Shown in pieces: positions 19,478 to 59,334 of a DNA stretch of 64,000 bases; positions within the stretch are counted from its first letter, which is position 1, and every line of letters begins with the position of its first letter. The position numbers were made by a program, and so were the translations under genes. The notes under the pieces are model-generated. The model was not told the origin of the DNA and did not search any database. It saw nothing but the letters and a program-made list of their open reading frames with translations. This DNA is from Clostridium sp. (GTDB taxonomy: Bacteria > Bacillota > Clostridia > Clostridiales > Clostridiaceae). The DNA is taken from positions 19,424 through 83,423 of the forward strand of contig SVCL01000191.1 in assembly GCA_015058405.1 (NCBI GenBank), given 5' to 3'.

Positions 19478-20179
19478 GTGAAAAAGATAAAATTATTTTG
19501 TATAGCACATGCAGGGGGATCAGCGGTCTCTTTTATTAAATGGAGAGATTATATAGATAAAAAAATAGAGGTGATACCTATAGAACTTTCAGGAAGAGGT
19601 GCTAGAATAGATCAAAAACTATATGATACTTTTGAGGAAGCAGTAGATGATGTATATAATGTAATTAATAGTGAAACAGAAAATAGTAAGTATGCTATAT
19701 ATGGACACAGTATGGGAAGCTGGATTGCTTTAGCATTATGTTATAAGCTTGCAAAAGAAAAGAGAAAACCTCCTGTACATTTATTTGTTTCAGGTAAGGA
19801 AGCACCATTTACAAAAGAAAAAGAAGAAAATATACATATGTTAAATGATAAGGAATTAGAGAAAAAATTAAAAGAATTAGGAGGAACTCCTAGATATATA
19901 TTTGAGAACGAAGAGTTAAAAAAGATGTTTTTACCTATTATAAGAGCTGATTACAAAATTATAGAAAGGTATAAGTTTAAAGAGAAACAGGAATTAAATT
20001 GCCCTATTTCTTTTTTTTATGGAATAAATGATTCAATAAGTGATTATGAAATAAATGGTTGGAGTAATTTTACTAATAATGAGTTCAGAATCATTAAGTT
20101 TAAAGGCAATCACTTCTTTTTATATGAAGATGTAGAAAAAGTAAGTGAAGAAATTAATTCAATATTAAAATGCTATTAA
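19478..20179 (+). CDS. Type II (editing) thioesterase; likely GTG start at 19478 (ORF track gives 19397)
   Basis: LFCIAHAGGSA, catalytic GHSMG, IIRADY, GNHFF; AAGGGG RBS before the GTG. Confidence 0.92.
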   Translation: MKKIKLFCIAHAGGSAVSFIKWRDYIDKKIEVIPIELSGRGARIDQKLYDTFEEAVDDVYNVINSETENSKYAIYGHSMGSWIALALCYKLAKEKRKPPVHLFVSGKEAPFTKEKEENIHMLNDKELEKKLKELGGTPRYIFENEELKKMFLPIIRADYKIIERYKFKEKQELNCPISFFYGINDSISDYEINGWSNFTNNEFRIIKFKGNHFFLYEDVEKVSEEINSILKCY

Positions 20180-20197
20180 GTTAAGGAGAGAGATTAT

Positions 20198-21175
20198 ATG
20201 CAAAATATTTATTATTGGAATTATGTGAATCAATGGAAGATTGATGGCGAATATCTAATCATAGGAAAAGAGAAGTTTAAAGGAAGTGTTACAAAATTAT
20301 TTCCAGAGTTTTATTTTTATGCTCAAGACGGCATAGATGTAGATAATTTACCTGATTTATCGGATAAGGTTAATAAGAAGATAATTAAAATATTTACAAG
20401 AGATTTGATTAAAAAAGGAATATTAAGAAATACTATTAATACTCCTTCTGAAATATTTGAATCACAAAGTAAATATATTAAAAGCATATATGATGATAAA
20501 TATTTCTTTGAAAGTGAAAATGTAGAGAAATTTAAAAAGGAACAAAAGTCAAGATTTATTAATATGCATAATGATAATGATGAAATAGCTTTAGATAATG
20601 AGATAAGTATTCCAGATTTTATTATAAATAGAAAGAGCGTTAGAAATTATGACATAAATAAAAAAATAAGTTTTAATACAATTTCTAATTTATTAGGTGC
20701 ATTAAAAAAGGTAAAAGATGAAGAAAGGTTTTATTATCCAAGTGCTGGGGGACTATATCCTATTAATGTATATATCTATTTTAAAGAAGATAGGGTAGAA
20801 GGAATAAAACAAGGATTATACTTCTATAATCCTGTAGATAATAGTCTTCGTCTAGTAAATAGTAATTGTAGTATAAATGATGAAAGTCAATTCTTTACTA
20901 ATAAAAATATCTTCAAGACATCAGCATTTACCATGTATTTAACATATGATAGTGAAAGTAATTTCCCTAAATATAAAAGTGATGGATATTTTTATGGATT
21001 ATTAGATTGTGGTGCAATGGTATCATTAATGAATTATATTGCATCGTATTTAGGATTAGGTTCATGTTCTATTGGATCTATGAATTTTGATTCAATAAAG
21101 GACTTTTTTAAATTAAAGCAAAACGAAGAATACATTCATTCAATTGAGTTTGGCTATGAAAATAATGAGAATTAA
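20198..21175 (+). CDS. Stand-alone SagB/ThcOx-type FMN-dependent thiazoline oxidase (nitroreductase fold) with N-terminal extension
   Basis: NRKSVRNY, YPSAGGLYPINVY, LLDCGAM and LGLGSCSIG motifs; immediately precedes the NRPS carrying Cy domains. Confidence 0.88.
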   Translation: MQNIYYWNYVNQWKIDGEYLIIGKEKFKGSVTKLFPEFYFYAQDGIDVDNLPDLSDKVNKKIIKIFTRDLIKKGILRNTINTPSEIFESQSKYIKSIYDDKYFFESENVEKFKKEQKSRFINMHNDNDEIALDNEISIPDFIINRKSVRNYDINKKISFNTISNLLGALKKVKDEERFYYPSAGGLYPINVYIYFKEDRVEGIKQGLYFYNPVDNSLRLVNSNCSINDESQFFTNKNIFKTSAFTMYLTYDSESNFPKYKSDGYFYGLLDCGAMVSLMNYIASYLGLGSCSIGSMNFDSIKDFFKLKQNEEYIHSIEFGYENNEN

Positions 21176-21187
21176 GGGGGAATTTAC

Positions 21188-24100
21188 ATGGGAAAAAGGT
21201 ATTTGGGCGAATATCTGTATTTATTAAGAAAAGAGAATAATAAAGGGATAACTATATTACATTCAAATGAAGAAGAGGAATACATAACATATAGTGAATT
21301 CTATAAGTTATGTAATGAGTTTGGAGAAAAATTAAAGGCAGTAGGCATAAGTACAAGTGATAAAGTATTAATTCAAGTTAATAATCAAAAAAAGTTTATT
21401 GTTATAATGTGGGCTTGTATATTGAAGGGAATAGCATTTATACCTGTTAAGGCTATTGAGAGTAATATAGATAGAAACTTGGTTGAAAATATAGTAGGTC
21501 AACTTGATGATATTAAGATAATAGTAGAAGAGGATAATAAAAATAAATACAAACAGTTTTTAGAAGATTCTCTGATTAATTTCGAAGAAATAGATAAAGT
21601 AGAAATAGATAACAATGAAATTGAAAATGATGGAGTTATAAGTGATAATTCAATGGCTTTAATTCAGTTTTCATCAGGATCTACTGGAAATCCTAAAGGA
21701 ATAGTTATAAGTCATAAAAATATTATAGTTGATCTTGTCTCTGTAATTAAATCATATAAACTTCAAGAAGAAGATTCAATTATGACATGGATGCCTTTAA
21801 CTCATTCTTTTGGATTATTAGCAGTTCATATATTAGCTGTAATGAATTGTACAAGCCAATATATAATGCAAACTAATACATTTATAAGTAAACCTAATTT
21901 ATGGTTAAGAAAAACTTCAGAAAATAGAAGTTCTTATCTATTTGCTCCTAACTTTGCAATGCAATATATAGTGGATAATATAGAAGAATTAAAAGAAGAA
22001 AATTTGGATTTAAGTTGTGTAAAATCAATTGTTTCTGCAGCTGAAAATATAAAAGAAGTTACTTGTAATAACTTTATAAATACTTTAAAACAATTTAATT
22101 TAAAAGCTAATGTTATCCGTCCTGCTTATGGATTATCAGAAGGAACGATTTTTATTAGTGTAACTGATTTAGCTAAAGGACATGTTAAGCATATAGTAGA
22201 TAGAAAATGTTTAACTATAGGAAGTAAGTTGAAATTTTTAGATTCTAATAGTAATGAAGCTGTTACCTTTATTGAAGATGGTAAAGTTTTAGACTGTTGT
22301 GAGGTAAGAATTTGTGATGATAAAATGAATGTTTTACCAGAGGGGTATATAGGTAGAGTACAGATAAAAGGTCATATGTTAGCAGAAGGATATATCAATA
22401 ACAATTCTATAGAACCTCTTTATCTTGTAGATAATGAGTGGTTTGATACAGGAGATATTGGATTTTTAAATGATAATGCCTTAACTATAACAGGTAGAAG
22501 TAAAGAAATAATCATAATTAATGGTACAAATTTATATCCTTTTGACTTTGAAAATTTAATAGAAGAGAATACTAACATAAAGCATAATTCCACAGTAGTA
22601 GCAGCCTTGTATAATGAGGAAATAGGTGAGGATGAGATTTTAGTATTTACTGTATACGAAGAGGAATTGGGAGATTTTACGGATTTAGTAAAAGAAATTA
22701 GAAAAGTAGTAAAGAAGAATACTGGATTTAATATAAAAGATGTAATAAAGATAGATTCAGTTCCTAGAAATAATAATGGTAAAGTAAGAAGATTAGAGCT
22801 AGTACAAAATTATGCAGATGGCATTTATAAAAAAGAGAATTTAAGTAATAATAAAACAAATGTAGATAAGGAAAGTTCAGTAAATAAAATTAATTCTATT
22901 TTAATTGATGTAATTAGAAAAGAATTAAAAAATAATAGTATAGATATTACAGATTCAATTTTAGAATATAATATTTCATCTATAAAAATCATTAAGATAT
23001 TAGGAATATTAGCTAATGAGACAAAAGTGAAAATTGAATTTAGTGAATTTATCGATTGTGATACATTCTTAGAATTAGCTAATATTATAAATGAAAAATA
23101 TAGCACTAATGAAGTGGTGGAAGCGGATAAGAAAATAGTAATTGATAAAGAAAATTTATATGAAGAATTTAATTTAACTAATATACAAATGGCTTATTTA
23201 ATGGGAAGAAATAAGCAATTTGAATTAGGAGATACTTCAACACATTACTATGCAGAAATAGAAACAACACTTGATATAGATAAGTTAAATAAGAGCCTAA
23301 ATGATGTTGTTAAAAGACAACCTATGTTAAGAGCAATATTTACTAATAATGCTAAACAAAAAATATTAGAAAGTGTTCCAGAATATAAAATCGAAGTAAT
23401 AGATGCAGTGAATAAAGAAGATATTTTAATGGCTGAAAGAAATAAAATGTCTCATCATATGTTTGATCCATATACTTGGCCATTATTTGATTTTAAAGCT
23501 TTAAAGATATCAGAAGAAAAATATAGATTACTATTTGGTATAGATTTATTAGTATCAGATGGTGCAAGTATTCAAATGTTATTTAAAGAAATAGCTGATG
23601 TTTATTATGGTAAAGATAAGGAAGAATTAGATATTACATTTAGAGATTATATATGTTCTAAGGAAGGATTATGTGAAACTGAAGCTTATAAAGTTGATAA
23701 AGAGTTTTGGAATAATAAAATTCCTGATATTCCACAGGCACCACAGTTACCTTTAAAGGTGAGATTAGCTGATATTAAGAAACCTCACTTTTTAAGAAAG
23801 GAAGCTATTATAGAATATGAGGACTGGAATAAGTTAAATGATTTATGTAAGAAACATAATACAAGATTAACATTTATGTTACTTACAGCATATTCATTAG
23901 TGCTTTCTAGATGGAGTAATCAAAAGGATATATCTCTAAATACAACAATATTCAATAGGGAATTAGCAAATGAAAGTATCCATAAGATAATAGGAGATTT
24001 TACATCAGCGTTAATTTTAGATGTTGATACTAAAGATAGAAATGATTTCTGGAAGTTAGCTAAAGAAGTTCAAGATAATTTTATGAATTTATATAGTCAT

Positions 24101-27100
24101 AAAAATTATGATGGAGTTAATGTAATTAGAGATTATAGTACTTACAATAATTTAGATAACAAGTCAGCAATAATGCCAATTGTATTTACTAGTATGTTAT
24201 TTGATGAAGAGGATAGTAACTTCGGAAATATAGGAGAAATGGTATACGGTATAACACAAACTTCTCAAGTATATTTAGATCATCAAGTAATGAATTTAGA
24301 AAAAGGAATATTATTAAATTGGGATTATGTTAGCGAAGCATTTGAAGAAGATACTATTAATTCAATGTTTAAAGAATATGTTGACTTAATTATGAACTTA
24401 TCAAATGATATTAATATAAATGAAGCAACTTATGAAGTAGAAAAAATGTTTGATAAGTATAATGATACATCAGAAGAATTTTCTACAGAAACATTACAAG
24501 AAATGTTTAGAAAGCAAGTTCTATTGAATCCAGAAAATATTGCGTTAAAGTATAAAGAAAAAGAAGTTTCTTATAAAGAACTTGATATTGCATCCAATAA
24601 AGTAGCAAATTATTTATCTAAAGAAAATGTACAAAAAGGAGATTTAGTAGGGGTACTAGCAGAGAGAAGTATAGAAAGTATCATTAGCATATTAGGTATC
24701 TTAAAAGCTGGTGCTGGATATATTCCTATAAATCCTGATTTTCCAGATGAGAGACAAAAGTATATATTAGATAATGCTAATTCTAACATTTTACTTAATT
24801 CAGAATTATGCAAGAATATAATAAAGAATTATGAAGAAAAGACAGATAATATATATGATAATGTAGATGATATTGCATATATAATTTACACATCTGGTAG
24901 TACTGGAAAACCAAAAGGTGTTGTTATAAAACATAAAGCAGTGTGCAACACAATTAAAGATATAAACAATAGATTCCATGTGGATAAAGATGATGTGTTT
25001 ATTGGATTAGCATCATTAAGTTTTGACTTATCAGTTTATGATATTTTTGGAAGCTTAACTACAGGTGGTAAGCTAATAATCATTGATGATCAAAGAAATG
25101 TTGAAGATGTAAGTAATATAGTAAAAAATGAAAAAGTAACAATATGGAATTCGGTTCCAGCTGTTATGGAAATGTTAATAGATTACAGAGAATCTCATGA
25201 AGAACAAGTTATAGATTACGATGATTTAGATGAATTAAGATTAGTTCTATTAAGTGGTGATTGGATTCCAGTTTCATTACCAGAAAGAATAAAAGACGAG
25301 TTTATGGATTGCCAAGTAATAAGTTTAGGTGGAGCAACTGAAGCATCAATATGGTCAATATATTATCCTATAGAAGAAGTAGATGAAAATCTTACAAGTA
25401 TACCATATGGATATCCTCTAGCCAATCAAACATATTATGTTTTAAATTATAATATGGAACTTTGTCCTGTAGGTGTAAAAGGTGAGTTATATATTGGAGG
25501 AGTTGGACTTGCAGAATGTTACTTAAATGATGATGAAAAAACTAATAATTCTTTCATTATACATCCTAAATATGGAAGAATCTATAAAACTGGAGATATG
25601 GGTAGATTTACTAATAATGGTTATATAGAATTCATGGGTAGAAATGATTCACAAGTTAAGGTTAGAGGATACAGAATAGAACTTGGAGAAATTGAAGCAG
25701 CAATATTAGAAAATACTAGTATAAAAAATGCAGTTATATTAAATGGAAAAGATAAAAATGGTATAAGTACATTGTTTGCATTCTTTACTTCAGAATCAGC
25801 TGTTGATATCCAAAGTTTAAGAAATACTTTAAAAGAATCATTACCTAAATATATGGTCCCAACATACTTAAAACAAGTTGATGAGATTCCATTAACTAAT
25901 AATGGAAAGATTGATAGAAAAACATTATTATCAATGGATTTAGAAGAGTCTGGATATAAGAAAGTTATAATACAACCTAAGAATGTTGTAGAAGCAAGAT
26001 TAGTAGAATTATGGAAAGAACTATTAGGTATTAAAGAAGTAAGTACAGATGATAATTTCTTTGAATTAGGTGGTAATTCAATTTTAGTAATTAAATTAGT
26101 AAGTTTAATAGAAAAAGAATTTAATATTAAAATTGACTTCAAGAATTTCATTGAAAATAGCAAAATCAAACAAATGGCTAAAATAATTGATAATTCTGAA
26201 AAGAAAAGTGATGATGATATAACATTTAAGGAAATTATTTTAGATGTTGAAAATCAATATGAGGAATTTGATTTAACTAATATACAAATTGCTTATTTAA
26301 TAGGTAGAGATAAACAATTTGAATTAGGTGGTACTTCAACACATGCCTATATGGAAATAGAAACAACATTAGAGATAGAAAAATTAAATGATGCTTTAAG
26401 AAAAGTAATACAAAGACATCCAATGTTAAGAGCTATTATTTTACCAAATGGTAAACAAAAAGTATTAGAAAATGTTCCTGATTATAATATTGAAGTAATA
26501 GATTTAACAAATAAGACTGTAGAAGAAAAAGAAGATTGTAACTTAAAGTTAAGGCATGAAATGTCACATCATATTTTTGATACTGATGTTTGGCCACTAT
26601 TTAATTTTAAAGCATTAAAAATGGATGTTAGTACTTATAAGATATTATTTGAAATTGACTTATTAATTGCAGATGGTGCAAGTATTCAAATGATATTTAA
26701 AGAAATGAAAGAATTCTATGATGGTAAGGAAAAGAAAGAATTAGGAATAACATTTAAAGATTATATGTGTAATTACAAATCTGTGTTAGAAAGTAAGAAG
26801 TATAAGGAAGATAAAGAATACTGGCAAAATAAACTTCCAGAAATACCTAAGGCAGCTCAATTACCATTAAAGAAGAAGGTTTCAGAAGTTGATGAACCTA
26901 ACTTTGGAAGAAAGCTTAGAATAATAGAAAATTCTACATGGGCTAATATTTGTGAAAAGGCAGCACAAAATAGCATAACACCAGCAATGATATTATTTAC
27001 AGCATATGCAAAAGTATTATCTAGATGGAGTAATCAAGATAAATTATCTATAAATACTACAGTATTTAATAGATTACCTATTCATGAGGATGTTAATGAT

Positions 27101-30724: not shown

Positions 30725-30739
30725 GGAGAGATTTAATAT

Positions 30740-32173: not shown

Positions 32174-32187
32174 AATATTATAGTAGG

Positions 32188-32228
32188 AAAATTCTCTTTT
32201 ATAACTAGGTTATAAAAGAGAATTTTTT
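32188..32228 (+). terminator. Intrinsic terminator inside the NRPS operon
   Basis: 18-bp perfect stem AAAATTCTCTTTTATAAC / GTTATAAAAGAGAATTTT, loop TAG, T run at 32223-32228, between co-directional NRPS genes. Confidence 0.7.
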
Positions 32229-45325: not shown

Positions 45326-45344
45326 ATATTATTGGAGGGGTTGT

Positions 45345-46595: not shown

Positions 46596-46613
46596 ATTTT
46601 AAAAGGAGGAAGT

Positions 46614-50153: not shown

Positions 50154-50181
50154 ATAAATATTTTTTTAGGGGGAATTTAAA

Positions 50182-51105: not shown

Positions 51106-51147
51106 TTTCATCTAGAGAGCTAAAGTAAAGAGGCGGAGGATATAAAA

Positions 51148-54100
51148 ATGAGTGATATAAATAAACTTAATACTCAAGATACAGACAAGTTATTTTGGAA
51201 TAAACAGTTAAGTGCTAATTTAAGTGATAATCATTTTCCTTATGATTACAATTATGAGGGGAATAATGAAGAAAAAATATATGAATGGTGTGAGCTTAAT
51301 TTATCAGATGAAGCAAATAATGTTATAAAAAAAGTCGCAGGAAGTTCTGATGTAAAGTTACATATTTTATTTATATCAGCATTAAGTATTTTAATAAGTA
51401 GGTATTCTGAAAATAACGATATTATAATATCATCTCCAATTTATAAGCAAAATATAGAAGGAAATTTTGAAAACAAAGTATTAGTTTTTAGAAATGAAAT
51501 TGATTTAGAAGGAAGTTTTAAAAACTTCCTTCTTAAGGTTAAGGACAATTTGGTTGAAGCAACTAAACATCAAAATTTTCCTATATCAAAGTTTATTAAT
51601 ACAATAGAGTTTGAAAATTTTGAAAATGGAAATGATATATTTCAAGTAATGCTTGCTATTGATGCTATTCATGATATTAATTATGTTGATTGTATAAATA
51701 GTAACTTATATTTTTTAGTTGTAAATGATGAAAAAAATATAAAAATAAAAGTTAAATTCAATTCTAATTTATATAAGAAAGAAAGTATTAAGTTAATATT
51801 ATATTCTTTAGAAGAGTTAATAACTGAATTAATTAGTAAAAATAGTATTGAGAATTTTAATATTCTTTCTAATTATGAGAAAACAAAAATATTAAATGAA
51901 TTTAATAAGAAAACAGTTTGTGATGAAGAATATTTACTTCATGAATTATTTGAAAAGCAAGTTGAAAAAAATCCAGATGAAATAGCTTTGATAGATGGAA
52001 GTAGAAGTATAACTTATAAAGAATTAAATGATAAAGCAAATTCATTGGCTGGATTTATAAATGAAAAAGGAATGGGGAAAAATACAATTATAGGAGTTAT
52101 GCTTGATAATTCCATAGAACTTATAATTTCATTATTAGGAATATTAAAAGCAGGTGCGGCTTATTTACCAATAGATTCAGGTTATCCAGAAGATAGAATA
52201 AGTTTTATGATTGAGGATAGTAAGTTAAATTGTATTATAACAGAAAATAAATATGAGAACTTATTAAAAGATAGAAAAATAAATATTATTGATATTAATA
52301 ATGAAGAAATATATTTATATAAGGATAGAGTAATTAATATTGAAAAGAATCCAAGTACTTTAGCATATATAATATATACTTCTGGTACAACAGGAAAACC
52401 AAAAGGGGTAATGATTGAACATAAAGCAGTTACTAAATCTATATTATGGCGTAGCAATGAATATAAGTTAAGTGTTGAAGATGCAGTATTGCAGTTATTT
52501 TCATATTCATTCGATGGATTTGTAACAAGCTTTTTTACTCCAATAGTATCTGGTTCTAAGGTAGTTTTATTAAAAGGAAATGAAGTTAAAAATCCTTATA
52601 AAATTAATGAAGCTATAAAAAAATATAATGTGACTCATTTTATAGCTGTTCCACCATTATTTAAAGCTATATTAGATAATGCAAAATATGATGATCTTTT
52701 GTCATTAAAAATTGTAACTTTGGCTGGTGATAATATAACTAATGATGTAATAAAGAAAGCTAAACAATTAAATGAAAATTTAGAAATTGTAAATGAATAT
52801 GGTCCTACAGAAAATAGTGTAGTCACAACTATATACAGAGATTTAAAAGTTAATGAGCCAATAAAAATAGGTAAACCTATAAGTAATACTCAAGTATATA
52901 TAATTAAAAATGATAAATTATGTAATGTGGGTATTAGTGGTGAGTTATGTATATCAGGAGAAAGATTAGCTAGAGGATATTTAAATAGAGAAGATTTGAC
53001 TTCTGAGAGATTTGTTCAAAATCCTTTTGATAAAGATTTAATTATGTACAAGACCGGAGATATAGGTAAGTGGGATATTGATGGAAATATAAGATTATTA
53101 GGAAGAAAAGATAATCAAGTTAAAATAAGAGGATTCAGAATAGAGCTTGGGGAAGTAGAAAATAGAATACTAGAATATAAAGGCATAGAAAGTGTAGTAG
53201 TTACAGCTAAATATGATCATCATAATAATAAATCTTTATGTGCATATTTTGTTTCTAAGGATAAAGTATCTACCTTAGATTTAAGACAATATCTTAATAA
53301 GGTATGTCCTTTATATATGGTGCCAGCTTATTTTATGCAAATAGATAGTATACCTATAACTGTTAATGGAAAGGTTGATAGAAAAAACTTACCGGATATA
53401 GAGTTTAAAAGAGATATAAATTCTAAGTTTGTTGAGCCTAGAAATGAAAACGAGAAGATTATTGCAAATGAATGGAGAAAAGTTTTAGAAATAGACCAAA
53501 TAGGTATATATGATAACTTCTTTAATTTAGGAGGAGATTCTCTTAAAGCTATTCAAGTTGCAAGTTTATTATCTGATAAGTTTGAAATCGAAATCAATGA
53601 TATTTATAAAAATCAAACTATAGCAGAACTAGCTGAAAAAATAAAATATTCTAATACATCTGTAAAGGATAGAATTAAACAAATAATAAATTCGGATTAT
53701 ACATTTAATGATGATAAAAATTTAAGTGAACAAGAATATATAAATGATGAATATAATAATAAATTGAATTTATGCAAAGAAGAAAGTTATACAGTGAAAA
53801 GTTATACTAACATAATGCTAACAGGTGTTACAGGATATGTAGGAGCATATTTAAGTAAGGAAATTTTAGAAACTTTAAATTCAAATATATATGTTTTAGT
53901 AAGAGGAGAAGATTTAAATATAGCTACTAAAAGATATATTGATAAGTTAACTTTCTATTTTGGTGAAGATTTTTATAATAAGTACAAAGATAGAATAAGT
54001 GTTATAAATGGAGATATAACAGAAGAATTTTTAGGTATAGAGAAATGTCATTATGATGAATTAGCAAATACAATAGATTGTGTTATTAACTCAGCTGCAT

Positions 54101-54915
54101 ATGTAAAGCATTTTGGTGAGTATAAAAATTTCTATGACATAAATATTAAAGGTGTAAATAACCTTATGAAATTTGCAAATAGTGGAGTTAAAAAGGATTT
54201 TAATCAAATATCAACTCTAAGTATAGCTTCAGGAACTATTCCTGAAAAAGACGAAATAGTGTTTACTGAGTTAGACTGCGATGTTGGTCAAGAAAATGAA
54301 AACTTCTATTCTATGAGTAAATTAGAAGGTGAGAAAAAAATATTAGAAGCTAGCAAGGAGTATTCAATAAATACTAAGATATTTAGATTAGGTAATATTG
54401 TTTGTAATTCAGAAAGTGGAAAATTCCAAGAAAATATTTCAGAAAATGCATTCTATAACTTTGTTAAGTCATTAATAAAATTGAAAACAATTGCAAATAT
54501 TGATTTAAAAGTTTTAGATTTTACATTTGTTGATCAAGCAGCTAAAGCAATACTAAAAATATTTGATAAAGAAAATTTAGAAATGAATATTTTCCATATT
54601 TCAAATAATAATAAAGTAAGTTTATCAGAATTAGGAAATATGTTGAAAGAAATATATAAGGATATTAATGTTTGTGATGCTAAGGAATTTCTTAATATAT
54701 TATATGATAATTTAGATAATGAAGAATTAGCACCTTATGTTAATAATATATTAAGATATTTTGGACTTTTAGATGATAAACATATAACTAAATTTATAAT
54801 ATTAAATAGCTATACTGATTTATTATTAAAGAAAAATAAATTTGAATGGAGTAAATTAAATATAGTTAAGTTAAAAAGTATGATTGATTATTGCGTTAAT
54901 AGTAAGTTTATTTAA
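51148..54915 (+). CDS. NRPS 5: half-C - A(Tyr) - PCP - R (terminal thioester reductase)
   Basis: A code DGTITAEVVK, one position from the fengycin-type Tyr code DGTITAEVAK. PCP GGDSL. R domain with TGVTGYVG, catalytic YSMSK and FRLGNI. Confidence 0.92.
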   Translation: MSDINKLNTQDTDKLFWNKQLSANLSDNHFPYDYNYEGNNEEKIYEWCELNLSDEANNVIKKVAGSSDVKLHILFISALSILISRYSENNDIIISSPIYKQNIEGNFENKVLVFRNEIDLEGSFKNFLLKVKDNLVEATKHQNFPISKFINTIEFENFENGNDIFQVMLAIDAIHDINYVDCINSNLYFLVVNDEKNIKIKVKFNSNLYKKESIKLILYSLEELITELISKNSIENFNILSNYEKTKILNEFNKKTVCDEEYLLHELFEKQVEKNPDEIALIDGSRSITYKELNDKANSLAGFINEKGMGKNTIIGVMLDNSIELIISLLGILKAGAAYLPIDSGYPEDRISFMIEDSKLNCIITENKYENLLKDRKINIIDINNEEIYLYKDRVINIEKNPSTLAYIIYTSGTTGKPKGVMIEHKAVTKSILWRSNEYKLSVEDAVLQLFSYSFDGFVTSFFTPIVSGSKVVLLKGNEVKNPYKINEAIKKYNVTHFIAVPPLFKAILDNAKYDDLLSLKIVTLAGDNITNDVIKKAKQLNENLEIVNEYGPTENSVVTTIYRDLKVNEPIKIGKPISNTQVYIIKNDKLCNVGISGELCISGERLARGYLNREDLTSERFVQNPFDKDLIMYKTGDIGKWDIDGNIRLLGRKDNQVKIRGFRIELGEVENRILEYKGIESVVVTAKYDHHNNKSLCAYFVSKDKVSTLDLRQYLNKVCPLYMVPAYFMQIDSIPITVNGKVDRKNLPDIEFKRDINSKFVEPRNENEKIIANEWRKVLEIDQIGIYDNFFNLGGDSLKAIQVASLLSDKFEIEINDIYKNQTIAELAEKIKYSNTSVKDRIKQIINSDYTFNDDKNLSEQEYINDEYNNKLNLCKEESYTVKSYTNIMLTGVTGYVGAYLSKEILETLNSNIYVLVRGEDLNIATKRYIDKLTFYFGEDFYNKYKDRISVINGDITEEFLGIEKCHYDELANTIDCVINSAAYVKHFGEYKNFYDINIKGVNNLMKFANSGVKKDFNQISTLSIASGTIPEKDEIVFTELDCDVGQENENFYSMSKLEGEKKILEASKEYSINTKIFRLGNIVCNSESGKFQENISENAFYNFVKSLIKLKTIANIDLKVLDFTFVDQAAKAILKIFDKENLEMNIFHISNNNKVSLSELGNMLKEIYKDINVCDAKEFLNILYDNLDNEELAPYVNNILRYFGLLDDKHITKFIILNSYTDLLLKKNKFEWSKLNIVKLKSMIDYCVNSKFI

Positions 54916-54927
54916 GGGGGGAGATTT

Positions 54928-56223
54928 TTGAATCAAGAAGCAGTACTAGAAACAAATATGTTAAAGTCAAGTTTCAAAAGAAATTATTTTTTATTAATGT
55001 TAGGGAGAACAATATCAGAAATAGGGACAAGCATTTTTAAGTTTGGGTTGAGTTTATATGTACTAGATGTAACTAAGTCAGCATTTGCATATTCTATGGT
55101 TCTATTCTTCTCTACAATGGCAGGAGTAATAACAAATGTGTTTGCAGCAAGTATTTCTGATAAATACAATAAGAAGAATATTATGATTATATCAGATATT
55201 CTTAGTGCTATAGTTATTTGCATTTTTTCAATCTTATGTGGCAGAATATTGAATAGTATGATAATATTAATAGTATATGTAATAATTATAAGTAGTATAC
55301 AGTCGTTATTTGAATTAACGATAAGCTCTGCTATTCCTAATTTATTCTGTGAAGATGATATAACTAAAGTAAATTCATCATTACAATCTATATTATCTTT
55401 ACTAGGTATATTTGGGGCAATAGTAGGGAGTTTTATATATAGTAGCTTCGGTATAACTACTATATTAATTATTGATGGAGTATCTTTTGGAATTACTGGA
55501 CTTATGGAAATGTTTTTAATCTATAAAGATGATAAAAGAGCAGTAGAGTTTCAAAAAGAGAAAAAATATATTAACAATATAAAAGAAATATTTATGTTTT
55601 TTAAGCAAAATAGTACGTTAATATTTTTAGTGATATTTGTAATGATAACAGGCCTAGTATTTGGATCTTTAGTGCTTTTAGTATTACCATATATAACTTA
55701 TAATGAATTAAATTTATCTTCGTTAGAGGTAAGTTTAATACAAGCAGGATGGTTTATAGGGACAATATTAGGCGCTATATTGGTATCTAAATATAATGCG
55801 TTATCAAATATAATGAAAAAGATTTTTTTATTTTTAGCAATTCAAAGTGTAAGTGTTATGTTTTGGGTGTTTCCTAATATATTGAATTCAAATAGTGTTA
55901 GTAATTGGGTTATAACAGGAGTGTATATGACATTATTAATTATACTTGGAATATTTAATAGTTATCAGATAATTCCGATAACAACATTTTTCCAAATATA
56001 TATTCCAACTGAAATAAGAGCTCGTTTTTTTGGAATATTCAATGCAAGTATTTTAATAGCGTCATCACTAGGTAATTGTATATATGGAATTCTACTTGAA
56101 AACTTCAATTGGTCAATAATAATTTTTATTTCAGGTATAATAACTATAGTTTATGCTTTATTTGGTAGAAAAGGTAAGAAGTTTGGCAAATATTCTGAAT
56201 TAATTGATAGTATAAATGTTTAA
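54928..56223 (+). CDS. MFS exporter (TTG start)
   Basis: About 12 hydrophobic helices; motif A-like ASISDKYNKKNIMIISD; second-half motif IPTEIRARFFG. Confidence 0.88.
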   Translation: MNQEAVLETNMLKSSFKRNYFLLMLGRTISEIGTSIFKFGLSLYVLDVTKSAFAYSMVLFFSTMAGVITNVFAASISDKYNKKNIMIISDILSAIVICIFSILCGRILNSMIILIVYVIIISSIQSLFELTISSAIPNLFCEDDITKVNSSLQSILSLLGIFGAIVGSFIYSSFGITTILIIDGVSFGITGLMEMFLIYKDDKRAVEFQKEKKYINNIKEIFMFFKQNSTLIFLVIFVMITGLVFGSLVLLVLPYITYNELNLSSLEVSLIQAGWFIGTILGAILVSKYNALSNIMKKIFLFLAIQSVSVMFWVFPNILNSNSVSNWVITGVYMTLLIILGIFNSYQIIPITTFFQIYIPTEIRARFFGIFNASILIASSLGNCIYGILLENFNWSIIIFISGIITIVYALFGRKGKKFGKYSELIDSINV

Positions 56224-56266
56224 AAAATTGTATTTACAACAACCAAGATTTAGGGGAGTGCAATTA

Positions 56267-57148
56267 ATGAAAGTCGAATTAAAGAATATAGGAAAACAAT
56301 ATACCAAAGATTTTTGGGGAGTAAAGAATATTAATTTAGAATTAGATGAAGGAGTTATAGGATTGCTAGGTTCAAATGGTGCAGGAAAATCTACATTAAT
56401 GAGAATACTAACAATGGTAACTAAGCCTACTTGTGGAGAAATTTTAGTAAATGGAAAAAATGTTCTTAAAAATCCTGAATCTTTAAGAAGTGTATTAGGA
56501 TATTTACCTCAAAATTTCGGAGTTTATCCTAACTTAAATGCATTAGAATTTTTAGAATATATAGCTTCTGTTAAAGGAATTAGAAATAAAGATGCAAAAA
56601 GAAGAATTGATGAATTACTTCAATTATTAAATTTACATGATGTATGCAAAAGACCAATAGGTGAATATTCAGGAGGTATGAAGCAACGTGTAGGTATAGC
56701 TCAAGCATTATTAAATGATCCTAAGTTATTAGTTGTAGATGAACCAACTGTAGGATTAGATCCAGAGGAAAGAGTTAGAATACGTAATCTTTTTTCAGAG
56801 ATTGCATCTGATAGAATAATTTTATATTCTACACATATAGTTTCAGATATTGAGGCTATTTCGAATAAAATAGCAATTATAAATAAAGGAAGATTGAACA
56901 TATACAATACAAATGAAAAAATTATAGATATGGTTTCAGATAAAGTATGGGAAGCAACAGTAAATGAAGATGAATTAAAGAAGTTAAAGGACAAGTTGTT
57001 AGTTAGTAATGTTGTAAGATATGGTAATGAATCAACATTAAGAATTGTATCTGAGACAGTTCCTACAATAAATGCAAAAAGAGTAAAACCTACCTTAGAA
57101 GATGCTTATTTATATTTTTCATCACATATAAGAAAGGAGAATGAATAA
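56267..57148 (+). CDS. ABC transporter ATP-binding protein (start probably 56267; ORF track gives 56216)
   Basis: Walker A GSNGAGKST, signature YSGGMKQR, Walker B VVDEP, H-loop STH; AGGGGAG RBS. Confidence 0.93.
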   Translation: MKVELKNIGKQYTKDFWGVKNINLELDEGVIGLLGSNGAGKSTLMRILTMVTKPTCGEILVNGKNVLKNPESLRSVLGYLPQNFGVYPNLNALEFLEYIASVKGIRNKDAKRRIDELLQLLNLHDVCKRPIGEYSGGMKQRVGIAQALLNDPKLLVVDEPTVGLDPEERVRIRNLFSEIASDRIILYSTHIVSDIEAISNKIAIINKGRLNIYNTNEKIIDMVSDKVWEATVNEDELKKLKDKLLVSNVVRYGNESTLRIVSETVPTINAKRVKPTLEDAYLYFSSHIRKENE

Positions 57149-58784
57149 TATGAACGCATTGGATAGAGTTTACAGAATTGCAAAGGCTGATTTTAAAGAG
57201 AGAGTACGAAGTTATAAGTTCTTAATAATTTTGGGATTTGCTATGTTTCTGTCTTTTACATTTATTGCTCCTACAAATGCAGAGTATATTACCAATTATG
57301 TAATGCAAGATAATGTTATTTATAGAGGTGTATATAATTCAGCATGGTTAGGAAGTATGATGGCGTTATCTATTACTGTATTTTTATCTTTATTTGGTTT
57401 TTATTTAATTAGAAGTAATGTAGAAAGAGATATTGATACAGGCATGAATCAAATTCTTGGTTCCTGTTCAGTGAAGAAGAGTATATATATTTTTGGAAAG
57501 TTTTTAAGTAATTTTTGTACTATATTAACAATTATATTAATTGCAGCTTTTTCTACTATAGTAATTCAATTTATTAGAGGTGAAGTATTGCAAATTAATT
57601 TAGTAGATATTTTTTCTCCAATAATTTTTATAGTGCTGCCAAGTATAGCAGTGGTTTCTGCAATAGCAATACTTTTTGAATCAATTTCATTTTTACGTGG
57701 TAGTTTAGGAAGCGTTGCTTACTTTTTGCTGTGGATGGCTATTTATATTATAACTATGGAAACAAATTTATCTAATCAAAATATTGCAGGAGCAAATATT
57801 TTTAAAAATGATTTATTTGGTATGACTACATTATTAAATTACATGCTTAATGGAATAAAAGAGGTATTCCCTAATATTACTGCTAATATGATTGAGCTAT
57901 TTGGCGATAAAGGAAGTTATGCTATACAAACTTTTAATTGGGGTGGAATAAAGTGGAGTGCATCTATTATTTTAGTAAGATTTATATGGGTGTTAGTAGC
58001 TTTATTAATTGTTGAAGTCTCTAGTGTATTATTTAGAGGGTTTGATGTTCTAAGAAAAAATAAAACTAATTTAAATGTATTAAGCTTATTTAAGAAGAGA
58101 ACACCAATTAATTATGAAATATATAAATATAAGGATAATGGAACTAAGTTAACTAAGTTGAAAAGTAGCTCTTTTCAATATAATTATATATCAAATATAA
58201 TTCAAGAAATTAAGTTATCATTAAAACTAGTAAATATTTGGTGCTTTTTAGCTATGATAATTATACTTATATTTGAATTTGTAGCACCTATAGATAGCGT
58301 TAAAGCATATTTAGCTCCAGTATCTACGATCTTACCAATTGGTATTTGGTCTATTTTAGGACTTAAAGAAGATAAATACAATTTAAGTCAAATCTTAAGT
58401 TCATGTTCTAAATATAAAACACGTCAATTTTTAGTTCAATGGATATCAGCAGTAGTGCTAACAGCTATTTTACAAGTAGGACTTTTAGTAAAGCTATTAC
58501 TAAGTGGAGGATTTTTAGGATTTATTTCATGTTTAGTAGGAATTATTTTTGTTCCTTCATTAGCATTTTTACTAGGTACTATAAGTGGGAATAGTAGATT
58601 ATTTGAAATAGTATATAGTATAATTTGGTATTTTGGATTAATTAACAATGTACCAGCACTAGATTTTATAGGAATTTTCACAGGTGGAAATATAATTATT
58701 ACATTATTCTATTTTATTATTTCGATAGCATGTGTTATTTGTGTATATTTGATTAAAGAAAATAAAGATTTTTCAAGTAGATAA
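57141..58784 (+). CDS. ABC-2-type permease with duplicated membrane domains
   Basis: 547 aa with many TM segments in two halves; overlaps the stop of the ATPase gene. Confidence 0.75.
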   Translation: MNNMNALDRVYRIAKADFKERVRSYKFLIILGFAMFLSFTFIAPTNAEYITNYVMQDNVIYRGVYNSAWLGSMMALSITVFLSLFGFYLIRSNVERDIDTGMNQILGSCSVKKSIYIFGKFLSNFCTILTIILIAAFSTIVIQFIRGEVLQINLVDIFSPIIFIVLPSIAVVSAIAILFESISFLRGSLGSVAYFLLWMAIYIITMETNLSNQNIAGANIFKNDLFGMTTLLNYMLNGIKEVFPNITANMIELFGDKGSYAIQTFNWGGIKWSASIILVRFIWVLVALLIVEVSSVLFRGFDVLRKNKTNLNVLSLFKKRTPINYEIYKYKDNGTKLTKLKSSSFQYNYISNIIQEIKLSLKLVNIWCFLAMIIILIFEFVAPIDSVKAYLAPVSTILPIGIWSILGLKEDKYNLSQILSSCSKYKTRQFLVQWISAVVLTAILQVGLLVKLLLSGGFLGFISCLVGIIFVPSLAFLLGTISGNSRLFEIVYSIIWYFGLINNVPALDFIGIFTGGNIIITLFYFIISIACVICVYLIKENKDFSSR

Positions 58785-58836
58785 TTTTTGATGGAAAAAA
58801 TATTAAATTTATATTAATGGTTTAAGAGGGATTGAG

Positions 58837-59334
58837 ATGCGTTGGTATGTATTGTTTGTTAATGTTGGAGAAGAAGTAAATGTAAAAAAATCAATAAAGA
58901 AGTTATTGTGTGAAGATTGTGAAGTTGTTGTACCTAGAAGAAAGATACGTGAAACTAAACAAAGAATCAAAAGGGAAGTAATTAAAAATTTATTTCCCGG
59001 ATATGTTTTTATTGAAGTAGATATGAATGCAGAGGTGTATTATAAGATAAAAAAAATACCTAATGTAATAAAAATCTTAAGTTATGATTCTAATTATACA
59101 GATGTATTAAGTAAGGAAATGGATCTTATATTTAACTTAATTACTGTAGGAGAAGTAATAGAATTATCTGATGCAATCTTTGTTGAAAATAGGTTACAGG
59201 TATTATCTGGACCTTTAAAAAATAAAGAGCAGTTCATAAAAAAGGTTGATAAGAGGAAAGAAAGAGCTACTGTATATTTTAATATACATGGTAAAACTCA
59301 AAAGGTGGATTTAGGGCTTAACATTATAAATTAG
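58837..59334 (+). CDS. loaP: LoaP-type NusG paralogue (processive antiterminator)
   Basis: NGN domain (WYVLFVNVGEE, LFPGYVFI) plus KOW domain with basic IKKVDKRKERA motif characteristic of LoaP; located at the end of a biosynthetic operon. Confidence 0.85.
   Translation: MRWYVLFVNVGEEVNVKKSIKKLLCEDCEVVVPRRKIRETKQRIKREVIKNLFPGYVFIEVDMNAEVYYKIKKIPNVIKILSYDSNYTDVLSKEMDLIFNLITVGEVIELSDAIFVENRLQVLSGPLKNKEQFIKKVDKRKERATVYFNIHGKTQKVDLGLNIIN

What the first reader, a model, noticed from the sequence alone, without database searches (positions are those of the whole stretch)
19478..59334. ~40 kb hybrid FAAL-NRPS/trans-AT PKS cluster in a Clostridium-like genome, predicting a bis-thiazol(in)e lipopeptide with reductive release
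Seen in sequence: a complete co-directional assembly line with a starter (FAAL-ACP), six A-domain modules, one KS module, a trans-AT, TE-II, an oxidase, a terminal R domain, exporters and LoaP. A-domain codes read by eye: Cys, Cys, Val, unknown/basic, Leu, Tyr. Each of the three E domains is followed by a DCL-type C domain (HHxxxDGWC). Inferred product: acyl-Thz-Thz-D-Val-D-Xaa(basic)-Leu-C(O)CH2C(O)-Tyr-al/ol. The TE-II, oxidase, Cy-NRPS opening recalls the Bacillus bacillothiazole (nrs) cluster, and the trans-AT recalls iturin ItuD/FenF. I know no characterised pathway with this full architecture, and few NRPS products are known from clostridia.
Basis: partly seen in the sequence, partly recalled or inferred. 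Interest (0 to 1): 0.92.

Follow-up and report, generated by a model that had tools for sequence, protein, structure and literature searches.

The report
Clostridium lipopeptide-aldehyde NRPS-PKS gene cluster
An intact, uncharacterised gene cluster of about 40-44 kb in a gut Clostridium should make a fatty-acyl, thiazoline-containing peptide aldehyde; the kind is ordinary, but its subunits meet at an unusual recurring junction that looks like an undescribed docking device.

Summary
Window 19478-59334 holds 15 co-directional intact genes: TE-II, SagB-type oxidase, FAAL-T-Cy-A(Cys)-T-Cy-A(Cys)-T-E, stand-alone DCL C, A(Val)-T-E-C, A(?)-T-E, C-A(Leu)-T, trans-AT, KS-T-C, A(Tyr)-T-R, exporters and LoaP. 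No lesion was found.

He missed four things:
- A CPBP protease gene sits inside the line.
- The cluster probably runs on to about 63.2 kb (S12 hydrolase plus two-component system, syntenic in Bacillus cereus).
- Three subunits begin with only the C-terminal lobe of a C domain ("half-C").
- Each of those three is preceded by a subunit ending in a full C domain plus an acidic ...[FL]xF-COOH tail.

That pairing recurred at every related junction examined, so I read it as a docking pair (inferred).

The host is an unnamed Clostridium sensu stricto from animal guts. Closest cluster relatives are only 45-50% identical (metagenomes, B. cereus group). No characterised counterpart was found, but MIBiG could not be queried.

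Verdict: a real, probably functional, new member of a known kind. The first-stage interest of 0.92 is too high; the junction is the most novel lead.

The parts
19478..20179 (+). Type II thioesterase (editing TE); GTG start at 19478
   Evidence: PF00975, E 5.6e-36. GHSMG motif. RBS and start codon.
20198..21175 (+). Discrete FMN-type azoline oxidase (SagB / nitroreductase family)
   Evidence: TIGR03605, 114.8 bits against a cut-off of 78.4. PF00881. Same gene position class as in the B. cereus relative L020.
21188..30724 (+). N1, 3178 aa: FAAL(30-538)-T-Cy(DLLVSD)-A(Cys)-T-Cy(DLLIAD)-A(Cys)-T-E; ends in a COM-donor-like helix
30740..32173 (+). C4, a stand-alone DCL-type condensation domain (HHILMDGWC), 477 aa
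   Evidence: PF00668, E 9.7e-96. Best solved relatives are TycB1, BacC and SrfA-C.
32147..32170 (+). C-terminal tail of C4 (...QDEGSFTF-COOH), proposed docking peptide
   Evidence: Tail statistics.
32279..37669 (+). N5, 1796 aa: half-C(1-265)-A(Val)-T-E-C(HHVILDGWC)
32279..33073 (+). Half-C domain of N5 (C-terminal lobe of a C domain only; no HHxxxDG)
   Evidence: PF00668 profile positions 189-453 of 456, E 2e-23. Alignment.
37643..37666 (+). C-terminal tail of N5 (...EDDIDFDF-COOH)
37686..41585 (+). N6, 1299 aa: half-C(1-262)-A(DVEQVGNVDK, unassigned, probably cationic)-T-E; ends in a COM-donor-like helix
37686..38471 (+). Half-C domain of N6
   Evidence: PF00668 profile positions 188-451, E 6.5e-16.
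41612..45325 (+). N7, 1237 aa: C(HHIIMDGWC)-A(Leu)-T-degenerate half-C
44702..45322 (+). C-terminal 207-aa domain of N7, a degenerate C-lobe conserved in relatives, placed before the KS subunit
   Evidence: hhalign against the half-C family: probability 95.4%, E 1.7e-8. Weak Pfam match. Conserved in L015 and L018.
45345..46595 (+). Discrete malonyl-type acyltransferase (trans-AT, FabD-like, with a C-terminal extension of about 130 aa)
   Evidence: TIGR00128, 303 bits. GHSLG and GAFH motifs. Syntenic in L015 and L018.
46614..50153 (+). PK, 1179 aa: KS(Cys-His-His)-linker-T-C(NHIISDG); no KR, DH or ER domain
50127..50150 (+). C-terminal tail of PK (...NEDLDFNF-COOH)
   Evidence: Orthologues end ...DLKFDFI and ...DLSFNF.
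50182..51105 (+). CPBP / Rce1-like intramembrane protease, 6 predicted TM segments; likely immunity or processing
   Evidence: PF02517. TM segments. Same position in L015 and in B. cereus L018.
51148..54915 (+). N11, 1255 aa: half-C(1-265)-A(Tyr)-T-R (thioester reductase)
51148..51942 (+). Half-C domain of N11
   Evidence: PF00668 profile positions 191-455, E 3.1e-20. AF2 model pLDDT 83, pTM 0.83. Foldseek best matches are NRPS C domains, TMq 0.69-0.76.
54928..56223 (+). MFS transporter
   Evidence: PF07690.
56216..57148 (+). ABC transporter ATPase
   Evidence: PF00005.
57141..58784 (+). Polytopic membrane protein (about 8 TM segments), probable ABC permease partner; no family match
58837..59334 (+). 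LoaP, a NusG-paralogue antiterminator
   Evidence: NF033641, 176.5 bits against a cut-off of 125.
59434..61416 (+). S12 (beta-lactamase-fold) serine hydrolase with an N-terminal TM/signal segment and 4 C-terminal TM segments; probable cluster member (resistance or processing peptidase)
   Evidence: PF00144. SVSK and YCN motifs and TM segments. PDB relatives include Pab87, Flp and alkaline D-peptidase. A homologue of this Pfam family stands beside the B. cereus cluster.
61438..63220 (+). OmpR-type response regulator plus HAMP/HisKA histidine kinase; probable cluster-associated sensing pair
   Evidence: The same pair stands next to the B. cereus relative.

Best explanation
This is an intact, probably functional biosynthetic operon. 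It encodes a seven-module thiotemplate line spread over seven synthetase subunits plus a discrete AT.

Shown by sequence:
- FAAL-T loads a fatty acid.
- Two Cy-A(Cys)-T modules build two thiazoline rings.
- A discrete SagB-type oxidase and an E domain follow.
- A DCL C domain joins Val (then E), a second DCL C joins residue 4 (then E), and a third DCL C joins Leu.
- KS-T with the discrete malonyl-AT adds one C2 unit. No KR is present.
- A C domain joins Tyr, and an SDR-type R domain with intact cofactor and Tyr/Lys motifs ends the line.

Inferred product: fatty-acyl-thiazol(in)e-D-thiazoline-D-Val-D-Xaa(probably cationic)-Leu-CO-CH2-CO-Tyr-H. That is a lipopeptide carrying a keto-statine ('statone') unit and a C-terminal tyrosinal. 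The aldehyde may be reduced further, or may condense with the active methylene to give a 3-acyl-pyrrolin-2-one.

The E domain and DCL C after ring 2 argue that ring 2 stays a D-thiazoline and that the oxidase acts on ring 1.

Inferred subunit order is fixed by two systems:
- COM-type helices act at the two E|C junctions (N1 to C4, N6 to N7).
- At the three C|A junctions (C4 to N5, N5 to N6, PK to N11), an acidic tail ending [FL]-x-F-COOH on a terminal full C domain docks on the N-terminal C-lobe-only 'half-C' domain of the next subunit.
- A fourth, degenerate half-C at the C-terminus of N7 faces the KS subunit. That subunit's N-terminus (MLSFDDIDL) carries a similar motif.

Inferred accessory roles:
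- LoaP gives processive antitermination over the 40-kb operon.
- The MFS and ABC pumps export the product.
- The CPBP protease, the S12 hydrolase and the two-component system provide self-protection or processing.
For: Domains, motifs and codes.

Intactness:
- All reading frames are open, with gaps of 12-105 bp or short overlaps between genes.
- A lineage 2-3% diverged (organism B) carries roughly 1,000 substitutions across the 40 kb. Its only listed indels lie at 19401 and 32234 (both non-coding) and at 56230 (15 nt into the annotated ABC ATPase ORF). None lies in a synthetase gene.

Expression hint: 16 short contigs at 99% identity or more in a bovine-gut metatranscriptome run.

Family conservation:
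- L015 and B. cereus L018 keep C-A-T-x | AT | KS-T-C | CPBP | half-C-A-T-R.
- L015 keeps the Leu and Tyr-like codes.
- B. cereus L020 keeps TE-II, FAAL-T-C, the oxidase and Cy-Cys-Cy-Cys.

Docking pair:
- Pfam places the three N-terminal domains at profile positions about 190-455 only.
- The AF2 model has pLDDT 83 and matches C domains.
- About 55 of the 120 best homologues of N11 start at the same boundary, full-C HMM positions 191-200.
- An acidic, Phe-bearing tail precedes every half-C junction examined: 3 in the window, 2 in B. cereus, L015, L005, L009, L010, C. felsineum, Abyssisolibacter, an Aminicenantes MAG and Psychrobacillus.
- The tail occurs in 39 of 94 fetched NRPS proteins that end in a full C domain, against 1 of 295 that do not.
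- The C-terminal domain of N7 is homologous to half-C at hhalign probability 95%.
Against: - No metabolite, transcript start or protein interaction was measured.
- The A4 substrate is unassigned.
- FAAL chain length is unknown.
- No PPTase gene lies in the window, whereas relative L015 has one after the R gene.
- The oxidation state of each ring and the fate of the aldehyde are inference.
- The RNA-run contigs could be DNA carry-over.
- The docking idea rests on co-occurrence only. Some tails deviate (DFKL, EFDIN). In L009 the tail follows a T domain, not a C domain.
- Truncated N-terminal C domains have been dismissed in the literature as inactive remnants (PMC7253712).
Confidence: 0.75

Rival explanations
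1. The half-C domains are evolutionary leftovers of recombination or gene fission (C-lobe + A units moving together). They serve at most as a structural platform for the A domain. The acidic Phe tails are merely how terminal C domains end, and subunit order is set by other contacts.
For: C-lobe plus A domain is a recognised co-evolving unit. A truncated N-terminal C* is annotated 'probably inactive' in thermoactinoamide ThdA, with a suggested gatekeeping effect on the A domain (PMC7253712). The half-C domains lack HHxxxDG. No binding data exist.
Against: The boundary is sharp (HMM positions 191-200) in about 55 independent proteins from several phyla. A half-C profile scores N-terminal half-Cs at 117-211 bits, above the 40-106 bits for C-lobes of full C domains, which points to a distinct conserved subfamily. 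All junctions examined pair tail with half-C. The tail is nearly absent from proteins that do not end in a C domain, 1 of 295. Only 41% of terminal C domains carry it, so it is not a generic C-domain ending.
Confidence: 0.3
2. The product is a thiazoline-based metallophore (pyochelin/yersiniabactin-like), not an antibiotic or protease-inhibitor lipopeptide.
For: Tandem Cy-A(Cys) modules, an E domain on a thiazoline module, a reductase and a phenol-bearing residue all occur in thiazoline siderophore pathways (established knowledge of the Pch and Ybt systems).
Against: The starter is FAAL-T rather than a salicylate or DHB aryl cap. No substrate-binding protein, Feo- or Fur-type gene or siderophore importer was seen anywhere in the window. 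The neighbours are exporters, a CPBP protease, an S12 hydrolase and a two-component system, which is typical of peptide-antibiotic immunity. Three D-residue-forming modules and a C2 extension fit a peptide ligand of proteins or membranes better.
Confidence: 0.08
3. The lipo-thiazoline-D-Val-D-Xaa part is a prodrug or carrier moiety. The membrane-anchored S12 hydrolase (59434-61416), or the CPBP protease, removes it outside the cell after the D-residue and releases a small Leu-ketomethylene-tyrosinal warhead.
For: The S12 hydrolase has a signal/TM segment, SxxK and YxN motifs and four C-terminal TM helices, which recalls the membrane-anchored S12 peptidase ClbP as I remember it. A gene of the same Pfam family (PF00144, 634 aa) stands next to the B. 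cereus relative. S12 D-stereospecific peptidases cut after D-residues; alkaline D-peptidase is among its solved relatives.
Against: There is no N-acyl-D-Asn starter module (C-A(Asn)-T-E). ClbP is not among the 60 best solved relatives. The same genes fit a resistance role (BogQ/TriF-type) equally well. The gene lies outside the LoaP-terminated operon.
Confidence: 0.12
4. The cluster is silent or decaying and makes nothing in nature.
For: There is no PPTase in the window and no product data. The cluster is absent from all GTDB species representatives, so it is accessory and patchy.
Against: All catalytic motifs are intact. No indel occurs in a synthetase gene across a 2-3% diverged lineage. Metatranscriptome contigs match at 99% or more. 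The cluster is present in several gut samples and hosts.
Confidence: 0.1

Closest known systems
Uncharacterised Bacillus cereus-group cluster (L018 from GCA_000293705.1; L020 from GCA_036408815.1) and the metagenomic Clostridium-like cluster L015
   Same: Shared opening: TE-II, FAAL-T-C(y), discrete nitroreductase-type oxidase and two Cy-A(Cys) modules. Shared ending: C-A-T-degenerate half-C | trans-AT | KS-T-C with ...[FL]xF tail | CPBP protease | half-C-A-T-R. B. cereus also has the RR, HK and beta-lactamase-fold trio. L015 has Leu and Tyr-like codes at the same two modules.
   Different: Protein identity is only 45-50% (A-T-R) and 29% (FAAL part). B. cereus has an extra Gly-like module, splits FAAL-T-C from the Cy modules, has no room for an E domain after the second Cys module, and carries other codes at the last two A domains. 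L018 and L020 come from different strains, so that they form one cluster is assumed. No product is known for either relative.
Bacillothiazol (nrs) pathway of Bacillus velezensis FZB42 (MIBiG BGC0002641)
   Same: An NRPS with several Cys-heterocyclising modules and a discrete oxidase that makes thiazoles. The MIBiG number and the name are cited from PMC13001227. The discrete-oxidase detail comes from my own recall of the original report.
   Different: As far as I recall, nrs is much smaller and lacks the D-Val/D-Xaa/Leu modules, the KS module, the Tyr-R end and LoaP.
Peptide-aldehyde NRPSs with terminal reductase (AusA aureusimine synthetase; gut Clostridia dipeptide-aldehyde NRPSs; fellutamide-type lipopeptide aldehydes)
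   Same: A terminal SDR-type thioester reductase with intact NAD(P)H and YxxxK motifs. AusA's R region is the best named NCBIfam relative after the generic TIGR01746 model. The habitat is a gut Firmicute.
   Different: Those lines have 2-6 plain NRPS modules. This one adds a lipid starter, two heterocycles, three epimerisations and a ketide unit directly before the aldehyde residue.
COM domains and beta-hairpin/SLiM docking domains of NRPSs
   Same: A short C-terminal peptide on the upstream subunit recognises an N-terminal element of the downstream subunit. This cluster also uses COM-like helices at its two E|C junctions (motif comparison from memory).
   Different: Here the receiver is a C-lobe fold of about 265 aa placed before an A domain, and the junction lies inside a module (C|A) rather than between modules. 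The 2021 docking-domain review contains no occurrence of 'truncated', 'pseudo' or 'partial C' (PMC9113145), so no such class appears to be described there.
Iturin/mycosubtilin-type FabD-like discrete acyltransferases (ItuD, FenF) and trans-AT PKS modules
   Same: A stand-alone malonyl-specific AT gene sits next to a KS-T module that has no cis AT.
   Different: There is a single KS module with no reductive domains, embedded between two NRPS modules. The AT has a C-terminal extension of about 130 aa, and related ATs of 409-430 aa occupy the same position in the relatives.

Membership tests
Modular hybrid NRPS / type I PKS assembly line | A, T, C/Cy/E, KS and release domains with intact catalytic motifs in collinear order | tested here: met
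trans-AT PKS module | KS-T module without a cis AT, plus a discrete AT gene | tested here: met
   PK carries KS, linker, T and C only. The AT gene at 45345-46595 scores 303 bits on TIGR00128 and has GHSLG/GAFH.
trans-AT PKS module | KS belongs to the trans-AT KS clades (phylogeny) | not tested
   No reference KS set was available.
LoaP-regulated biosynthetic operon | LoaP-subfamily NusG paralogue encoded at the cluster | tested here: met
   NF033641, 176.5 bits against a cut-off of 125.
LoaP-regulated biosynthetic operon | Leader RNA hairpin bound by LoaP, and terminators that are read through | not tested
   The 19060-19460 leader was read but not analysed for the element. Rfam gave no hit in the window.
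Bacillothiazol (nrs)-type multithiazole NRPS | Tandem Cy-A(Cys)-T modules plus a discrete azoline oxidase | tested here: met
Bacillothiazol (nrs)-type multithiazole NRPS | Sequence orthology to Nrs proteins / the MIBiG BGC0002641 gene set | not testable with these tools
   No nrs sequences or MIBiG search were available. The best database relative of the FAAL-T-Cy part is 39% identical and unnamed.
Reductively released peptide aldehydes/alcohols | Terminal SDR thioester-reductase domain with a GxxGxxG-type motif and catalytic Tyr/Lys | tested here: met
   TGVTGYVG and YSMSK. TIGR01746 is the best model at 177.5 bits, below its curated cut-off of 213.
Reductively released peptide aldehydes/alcohols | Aldehyde or alcohol product | not testable with these tools
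   Needs chemistry.
DCL condensation domains | Position after an E domain, and closer similarity to known D-donor C domains than to LCL domains | tested here: met
   (position, HHxxxDGWC). TycB1 333 bits, SrfA-C about 300 bits, LCL TycC6/LgrA about 80 bits. Only C4 was searched; the other two align to it at E 1e-85 to 1e-87.
ClbP-type N-acyl-D-Asn prodrug systems | Starter module C-A(Asn)-T-E and a ClbP-like peptidase | tested here: not met
   The starter is FAAL-T-Cy and no Asn code is present. ClbP is not among the 60 best solved relatives of the S12 hydrolase.
Thiazoline siderophores (pyochelin/yersiniabactin type) | Aryl-acid starter and cognate uptake genes | tested here: not met
   FAAL starter. 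No uptake genes in the window.
D-stereospecific resistance peptidases (BogQ/TriF type) | S12 beta-lactamase-fold hydrolase with SxxK/YxN encoded at a gene cluster whose product carries D-residues | tested here: inconclusive
   The fold family and motifs are met, and D-residues are predicted. No BogQ or TriF sequence was available for comparison, and activity is untested.
Proposed half-C / acidic-tail docking pair (no established family) | N-terminal C-lobe-only domain preceded in gene order by a subunit ending in [DE]..[FL]xF-COOH | tested here: met
   Three junctions in the window and ten in other loci. Statistics. Fold.
Proposed half-C / acidic-tail docking pair (no established family) | Physical, specific binding of tail to half-C | not testable with these tools
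Needs AF-Multimer or biochemistry.

The most novel reading that the evidence does not exclude
The C-lobe-only 'half-C' domain plus the acidic ...[FL]-x-F-COOH tail is a widespread NRPS docking system that has not been recognised as such.
- It splits modules between C and A, holds a terminal full C domain against the next subunit's A-T, and leaves room at the junction for a trans-acting tailoring gene (B12 radical SAM enzymes in several related loci; the oxidase gene in B. cereus).
- In inverted polarity it also bridges the NRPS-to-KS junction.
- In this cluster, three such junctions with different tails (SFTF, DFDF, DFNF) would encode subunit order, and mis-docking could give shortened congeners.
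Probability: 0.35. Interest if true: 0.75.

Novelty: new member of a known kind. Interest (0 to 1): 0.5.

Why it matters
- Few non-ribosomal products are known from Clostridium. This cluster sits in an unnamed species found in faecal, bovine, mouse and other gut samples, so its product could act on neighbouring microbes or on host proteases.
- The predicted scaffold joins a lipid, two sulfur heterocycles, D-residues, a keto-statine unit and a peptide aldehyde. The last two are classical protease-inhibitor warheads. That makes it a concrete genome-mining target, with relatives in the B. cereus group available for comparison.
- If the half-C/tail junction is a true docking pair, it explains how many multi-subunit NRPSs of Bacillota and other phyla order their subunits. 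It would also give engineers a natural split point between C and A.

Tried and rejected
- Thumolycin (B. thuringiensis/B. cereus) as the characterised counterpart of the B. cereus relative: rejected. It is a TE-released pentapeptide with an arylpolyene lipid from a plasmid tho cluster (PMC10672896).
- Bilothiazoles: the paper holds none of the relevant features.
- Frameshift explanation for the half-C domains: rejected. Only 16-105 bp separate the genes, so there is no room for a lost N-lobe, and the upstream C domains are complete.
- R domain as a non-reducing Dieckmann cyclase (R*): disfavoured. The NAD(P)H motif and YxxxK are intact.
- ClbP-type prodrug logic: defining features not met.
- Window B12 radical SAM gene (10353-11891, minus strand) as a cluster member like the junction rSAMs of related loci: rejected. 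It is only about 22% identical to them, whereas they are 40-55% identical to each other.
- Rfam scan of the window: no hit.
- Full-length N1 protein search timed out; it was repeated with residues 1-1100.
- Literature searches for truncated or partial C domains as docking elements returned only the ThdA 'C*' remark.
- The genome-contig scan found no close cluster. The source species could therefore not be named, and run labels were coded.

Full report
**What is there**

The window has about 26% G+C throughout. From 19.4 to 63.2 kb every ORF of 100 aa or more lies on the + strand, apart from two short ORFs embedded antisense within genes. Intergenic gaps in the synthetase region are 12-105 bp, or the genes overlap slightly.

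Pfam and NCBIfam assign the genes as follows:
- TE-II (PF00975) and a SagB-type dehydrogenase (TIGR03605, 114.8 bits against 78.4);
- six NRPS proteins, a FabD-type acyltransferase (TIGR00128, 303 bits) and a KS-T-C protein;
- a CPBP/Rce1-like membrane protease;
- an A-T-reductase protein (TIGR01746 is the best model);
- an MFS pump, an ABC ATPase and a polytopic membrane protein;
- LoaP (NF033641, 176.5 bits against 125).

A hairpin terminator of the upstream pyruvate carboxylase gene lies at about 19012-19058. His end, 59334, is the LoaP stop codon.

**Domain anatomy**

Self-comparison with phmmer, a MAFFT alignment of all condensation-family domains and motif scans give this architecture:
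- N1 = FAAL-T-Cy-A-T-Cy-A-T-E
- C4 = stand-alone C
- N5 = half-C-A-T-E-C
- N6 = half-C-A-T-E
- N7 = C-A-T-x
- AT (discrete)
- PK = KS-T-C
- N11 = half-C-A-T-R

Specificity codes, taken by alignment to the GrsA Phe-A fragment (sequence recalled from memory; its own code DAWTIAAICK came out correctly) and checked by residue counting, are:
- DLYNLSLIWK twice (Cys)
- DAFWIGGTFK (Val)
- DVEQVGNVDK (unassigned)
- DAWFLGNVVK (Leu)
- DGTITAEVVK (Tyr, 9 of 10 to the classical code)

The three C domains that follow E domains read HHxxxDGWC. C4 is far closer to solved C domains that accept D-donors (TycB1 333 bits, BacC, SrfA-C about 300, McyB, PvdL C3) than to LCL domains (about 80 bits). The C domain after the PKS carrier has NHIISDG, so the catalytic second His is retained.

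KS has its Cys and two His residues. AT has GHSLG and a GAFH malonyl-type motif. R has TGVTGYVG and YSMSK, which argues for a true reductase rather than a Dieckmann-type R*. The seven NRPS/PKS carrier domains have the GG(D/N)S serine, and the FAAL-linked carrier has a variant NISSIK motif. All A domains have the A3, A7, A8 and A10 cores. I found no inactivating lesion.

N5, N6 and N11 each begin with about 265 residues that match only profile positions about 190-455 of the 456-position Condensation model (E 2e-23, 6.5e-16 and 3.1e-20). This is the C-terminal lobe without the HHxxxDG lobe.

There is no room upstream for a lost N-lobe, because the gaps are 105, 16 and 42 bp. In each case the preceding synthetase protein already ends in a complete C domain.

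An AlphaFold2 model of the N11 half-C (25-sequence alignment) is confident (pLDDT 83, pTM 0.83). Its best Foldseek matches are NRPS C domains (Txo1/Txo2 C-A, TycC, LgrA; TM-score 0.69-0.76 on the query).

The three proteins that precede a half-C end in similar tails...QDEGSFTF...EDDIDFDF and ...ENEDLDFNF. N7 carries a 207-residue C-terminal domain. It is conserved in two relatives and aligns to the half-C family at hhalign probability 95.4%, E 1.7e-8.

**Is the junction a general thing?**

Yes, on the evidence available:
- A profile of the three half-Cs finds 7,986 representative proteins at E 1e-30 or better. About a third of the best 150 have their best stretch at their very N-terminus.
- About 55 of the 120 best homologues of N11 start with a half-C. 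The boundary is always at full-C HMM position 191-200. They come from Clostridium, Bacillus, Psychrobacillus, Abyssisolibacter, Aminicenantes and Kapabacteria.
- At every junction whose upstream neighbour I could read, that neighbour ends in an acidic, Phe-bearing tail. These were two junctions in B. cereus, plus L015, L005, L009, L010, C. felsineum, Abyssisolibacter, an Aminicenantes MAG and Psychrobacillus. The tails were DFNF, SFNF, KFDFI, DLDF, EFDF, DFEF, DFKL, EFDIN, EFEF and DFSF. All but one follow a full C domain.
- Among 389 fetched NRPS proteins the tail occurs in 39 of 94 that end in a full C domain and in 1 of 295 that do not.
- Often one gene sits inside the junction. It is a B12 radical SAM enzyme in five related loci, the oxidase in B. 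cereus and the CPBP protease here.

I infer a docking pair: tail on half-C. This is co-occurrence evidence only. The 2021 docking review contains no occurrence of 'truncated', 'pseudo' or 'partial C'. The one literature remark I found calls such a domain 'probably inactive' (PMC7253712).

The KS subunit's N-terminus resembles the tails: MLSFDDIDL here, MLNFNEIEL in L015 and MLDFKDFDL in B. cereus. It faces N7's C-terminal half-C, which fits the same idea in inverted polarity.

**How the line most likely works**

Shown: the domain order and the specificities.

Inferred steps:
- FAAL loads a fatty acid on T0.
- Two Cy modules give two thiazolines.
- The E domain and the DCL C4 after ring 2 make sense only if ring 2 keeps its stereocentre (D-thiazoline). 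The discrete oxidase therefore most likely aromatises ring 1.
- D-Val, D-Xaa and L-Leu follow.
- KS plus malonyl-AT add C2 with no reduction. This gives a Leu-derived gamma-amino-beta-keto ('statone') unit.
- Tyr is added and released reductively as tyrosinal. The aldehyde could be reduced again or undergo Knoevenagel ring closure with the beta-keto-amide methylene.

A4 (DVEQVGNVDK) has Glu239 and Asp331 and is nearest, by my recall of published codes, to Orn-type DVGEIGSIDK, so it is probably cationic.

**Surroundings and extent**

Upstream genes are housekeeping: pyruvate carboxylase, a branching enzyme and others.

Downstream of LoaP come an S12 beta-lactamase-fold hydrolase and an OmpR/HisKA pair. 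The hydrolase has an N-terminal TM/signal segment, SVSK and YCN motifs and four C-terminal TM helices. The same three gene types flank the B. cereus relative, so the functional unit probably reaches about 63.2 kb.

Their role is open: a BogQ/TriF-like resistance peptidase, or processing. ClbP-type prodrug logic fails its defining tests. No PPTase is in the window.

**Relatives and host**

- The exact proteins occur only on a JGI metagenome contig and in one faecal run.
- The DNA is found in faecal, gut, bovine and mouse metagenomes, and in runs of two coded organisms.
- The best GTDB-representative match to KS-T-C is 47%.
- The best protein matches are 50% for A-T-R (metagenomes), 45% in B. 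cereus and 39% for FAAL-T-Cy.
- L015 keeps the back half, with Leu and Tyr-like codes.
- B. cereus strains keep both the opening (TE-II, FAAL-T-C, oxidase, half-C-A(Gly-like)-T-Cy-Cys-Cy-Cys) and the back half.
- Pyruvate carboxylase places the host in Clostridium sensu stricto, 81-83% to named species.

**Signs of function**

A lineage 2-3% diverged shows roughly 1,000 substitutions across the 40 kb. Its only listed indels are at two non-coding sites and near the ABC ATPase start.

A bovine-gut metatranscriptome run holds 16 short contigs at 99% identity or more, scattered over the operon. This is suggestive only, since DNA carry-over is possible.

**Known or new?**

Nine literature searches found no characterised counterpart. 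Thumolycin and the bilothiazoles are different. Bacillothiazol (BGC0002641) shares the Cy/oxidase logic but could not be compared by sequence. MIBiG was not searchable.

I file the cluster as a new member of a known kind, with interest about 0.5. The half-C/tail junction is the part that could be new biology.

Noticed in passing
L022:1279-2985; L023:1317-2975; L024:1247-2968; L009:16843-18414; L010:13276-15018: In five related loci a B12-binding radical SAM gene sits exactly between the subunit that ends in C+tail and the subunit that starts with half-C. Three of these enzymes are 40-55% identical to one another. This suggests tailoring of the aminoacyl-S-T of the downstream subunit at such split junctions.
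   Followed up: partly
L023:1-1197 (upstream 2953-aa NRPS of Abyssisolibacter fermentans): The precomputed Pfam order lists Radical_SAM and B12-binding hits between two AMP-binding hits of one NRPS protein. A radical SAM domain may therefore be embedded in an A domain.
   Followed up: no
L010:12467-13279: A stand-alone 271-aa protein consists of a half-C domain only and ends in ...EDDDFEF. It could be an adaptor that both receives and presents a tail.
   Followed up: no
L009:18398-24907: A Halothermothrix MAG subunit starts with a half-C directly followed by a full C domain. Its upstream partner ends in T + ...EEEFDF rather than C + tail. This is a variant that does not fit the simple C|A split.
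   Followed up: no
window:46614-46650, and the orthologues L015:5335 and L018:5046: The KS subunit begins MLSFDDIDL (MLNFNEIEL in L015, MLDFKDFDL in L018). This is an L-x-F-x-acidic motif resembling the C-terminal tails, and it faces the degenerate half-C at the end of N7.
   Followed up: partly
They are syntenic with the B. cereus relative.
   Followed up: partly
window:10353-11891 (-): A B12-binding radical SAM gene lies 8 kb upstream of the cluster on the other strand. It is only about 22% identical to the junction rSAMs and is probably unrelated.
   Followed up: yes
window:19300-59299: A bovine-gut 'METAGENOMIC RNA-Seq' run (X13) holds 16 contigs of 207-514 nt at 99% identity or more, spread over N1, N5, N6, N7, AT, PK, CPBP/N11, MFS and the permease/LoaP region.
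   Followed up: partly
window:19401, 32234, 56230: The only listed indels in a lineage 2-3% diverged (organism B) are a 2-nt loss before the TE-II start, a TGA insertion in the C4-N5 spacer and an A insertion 15 nt into the annotated ABC ATPase ORF. The last suggests that gene's true start lies further downstream.
   Followed up: no
window:13886-15338 (-): A sigma-70 region-2 (ECF-like) protein and a DUF445 membrane protein lie between the housekeeping genes and the pyruvate carboxylase gene. No link to the cluster is evident.
   Followed up: no
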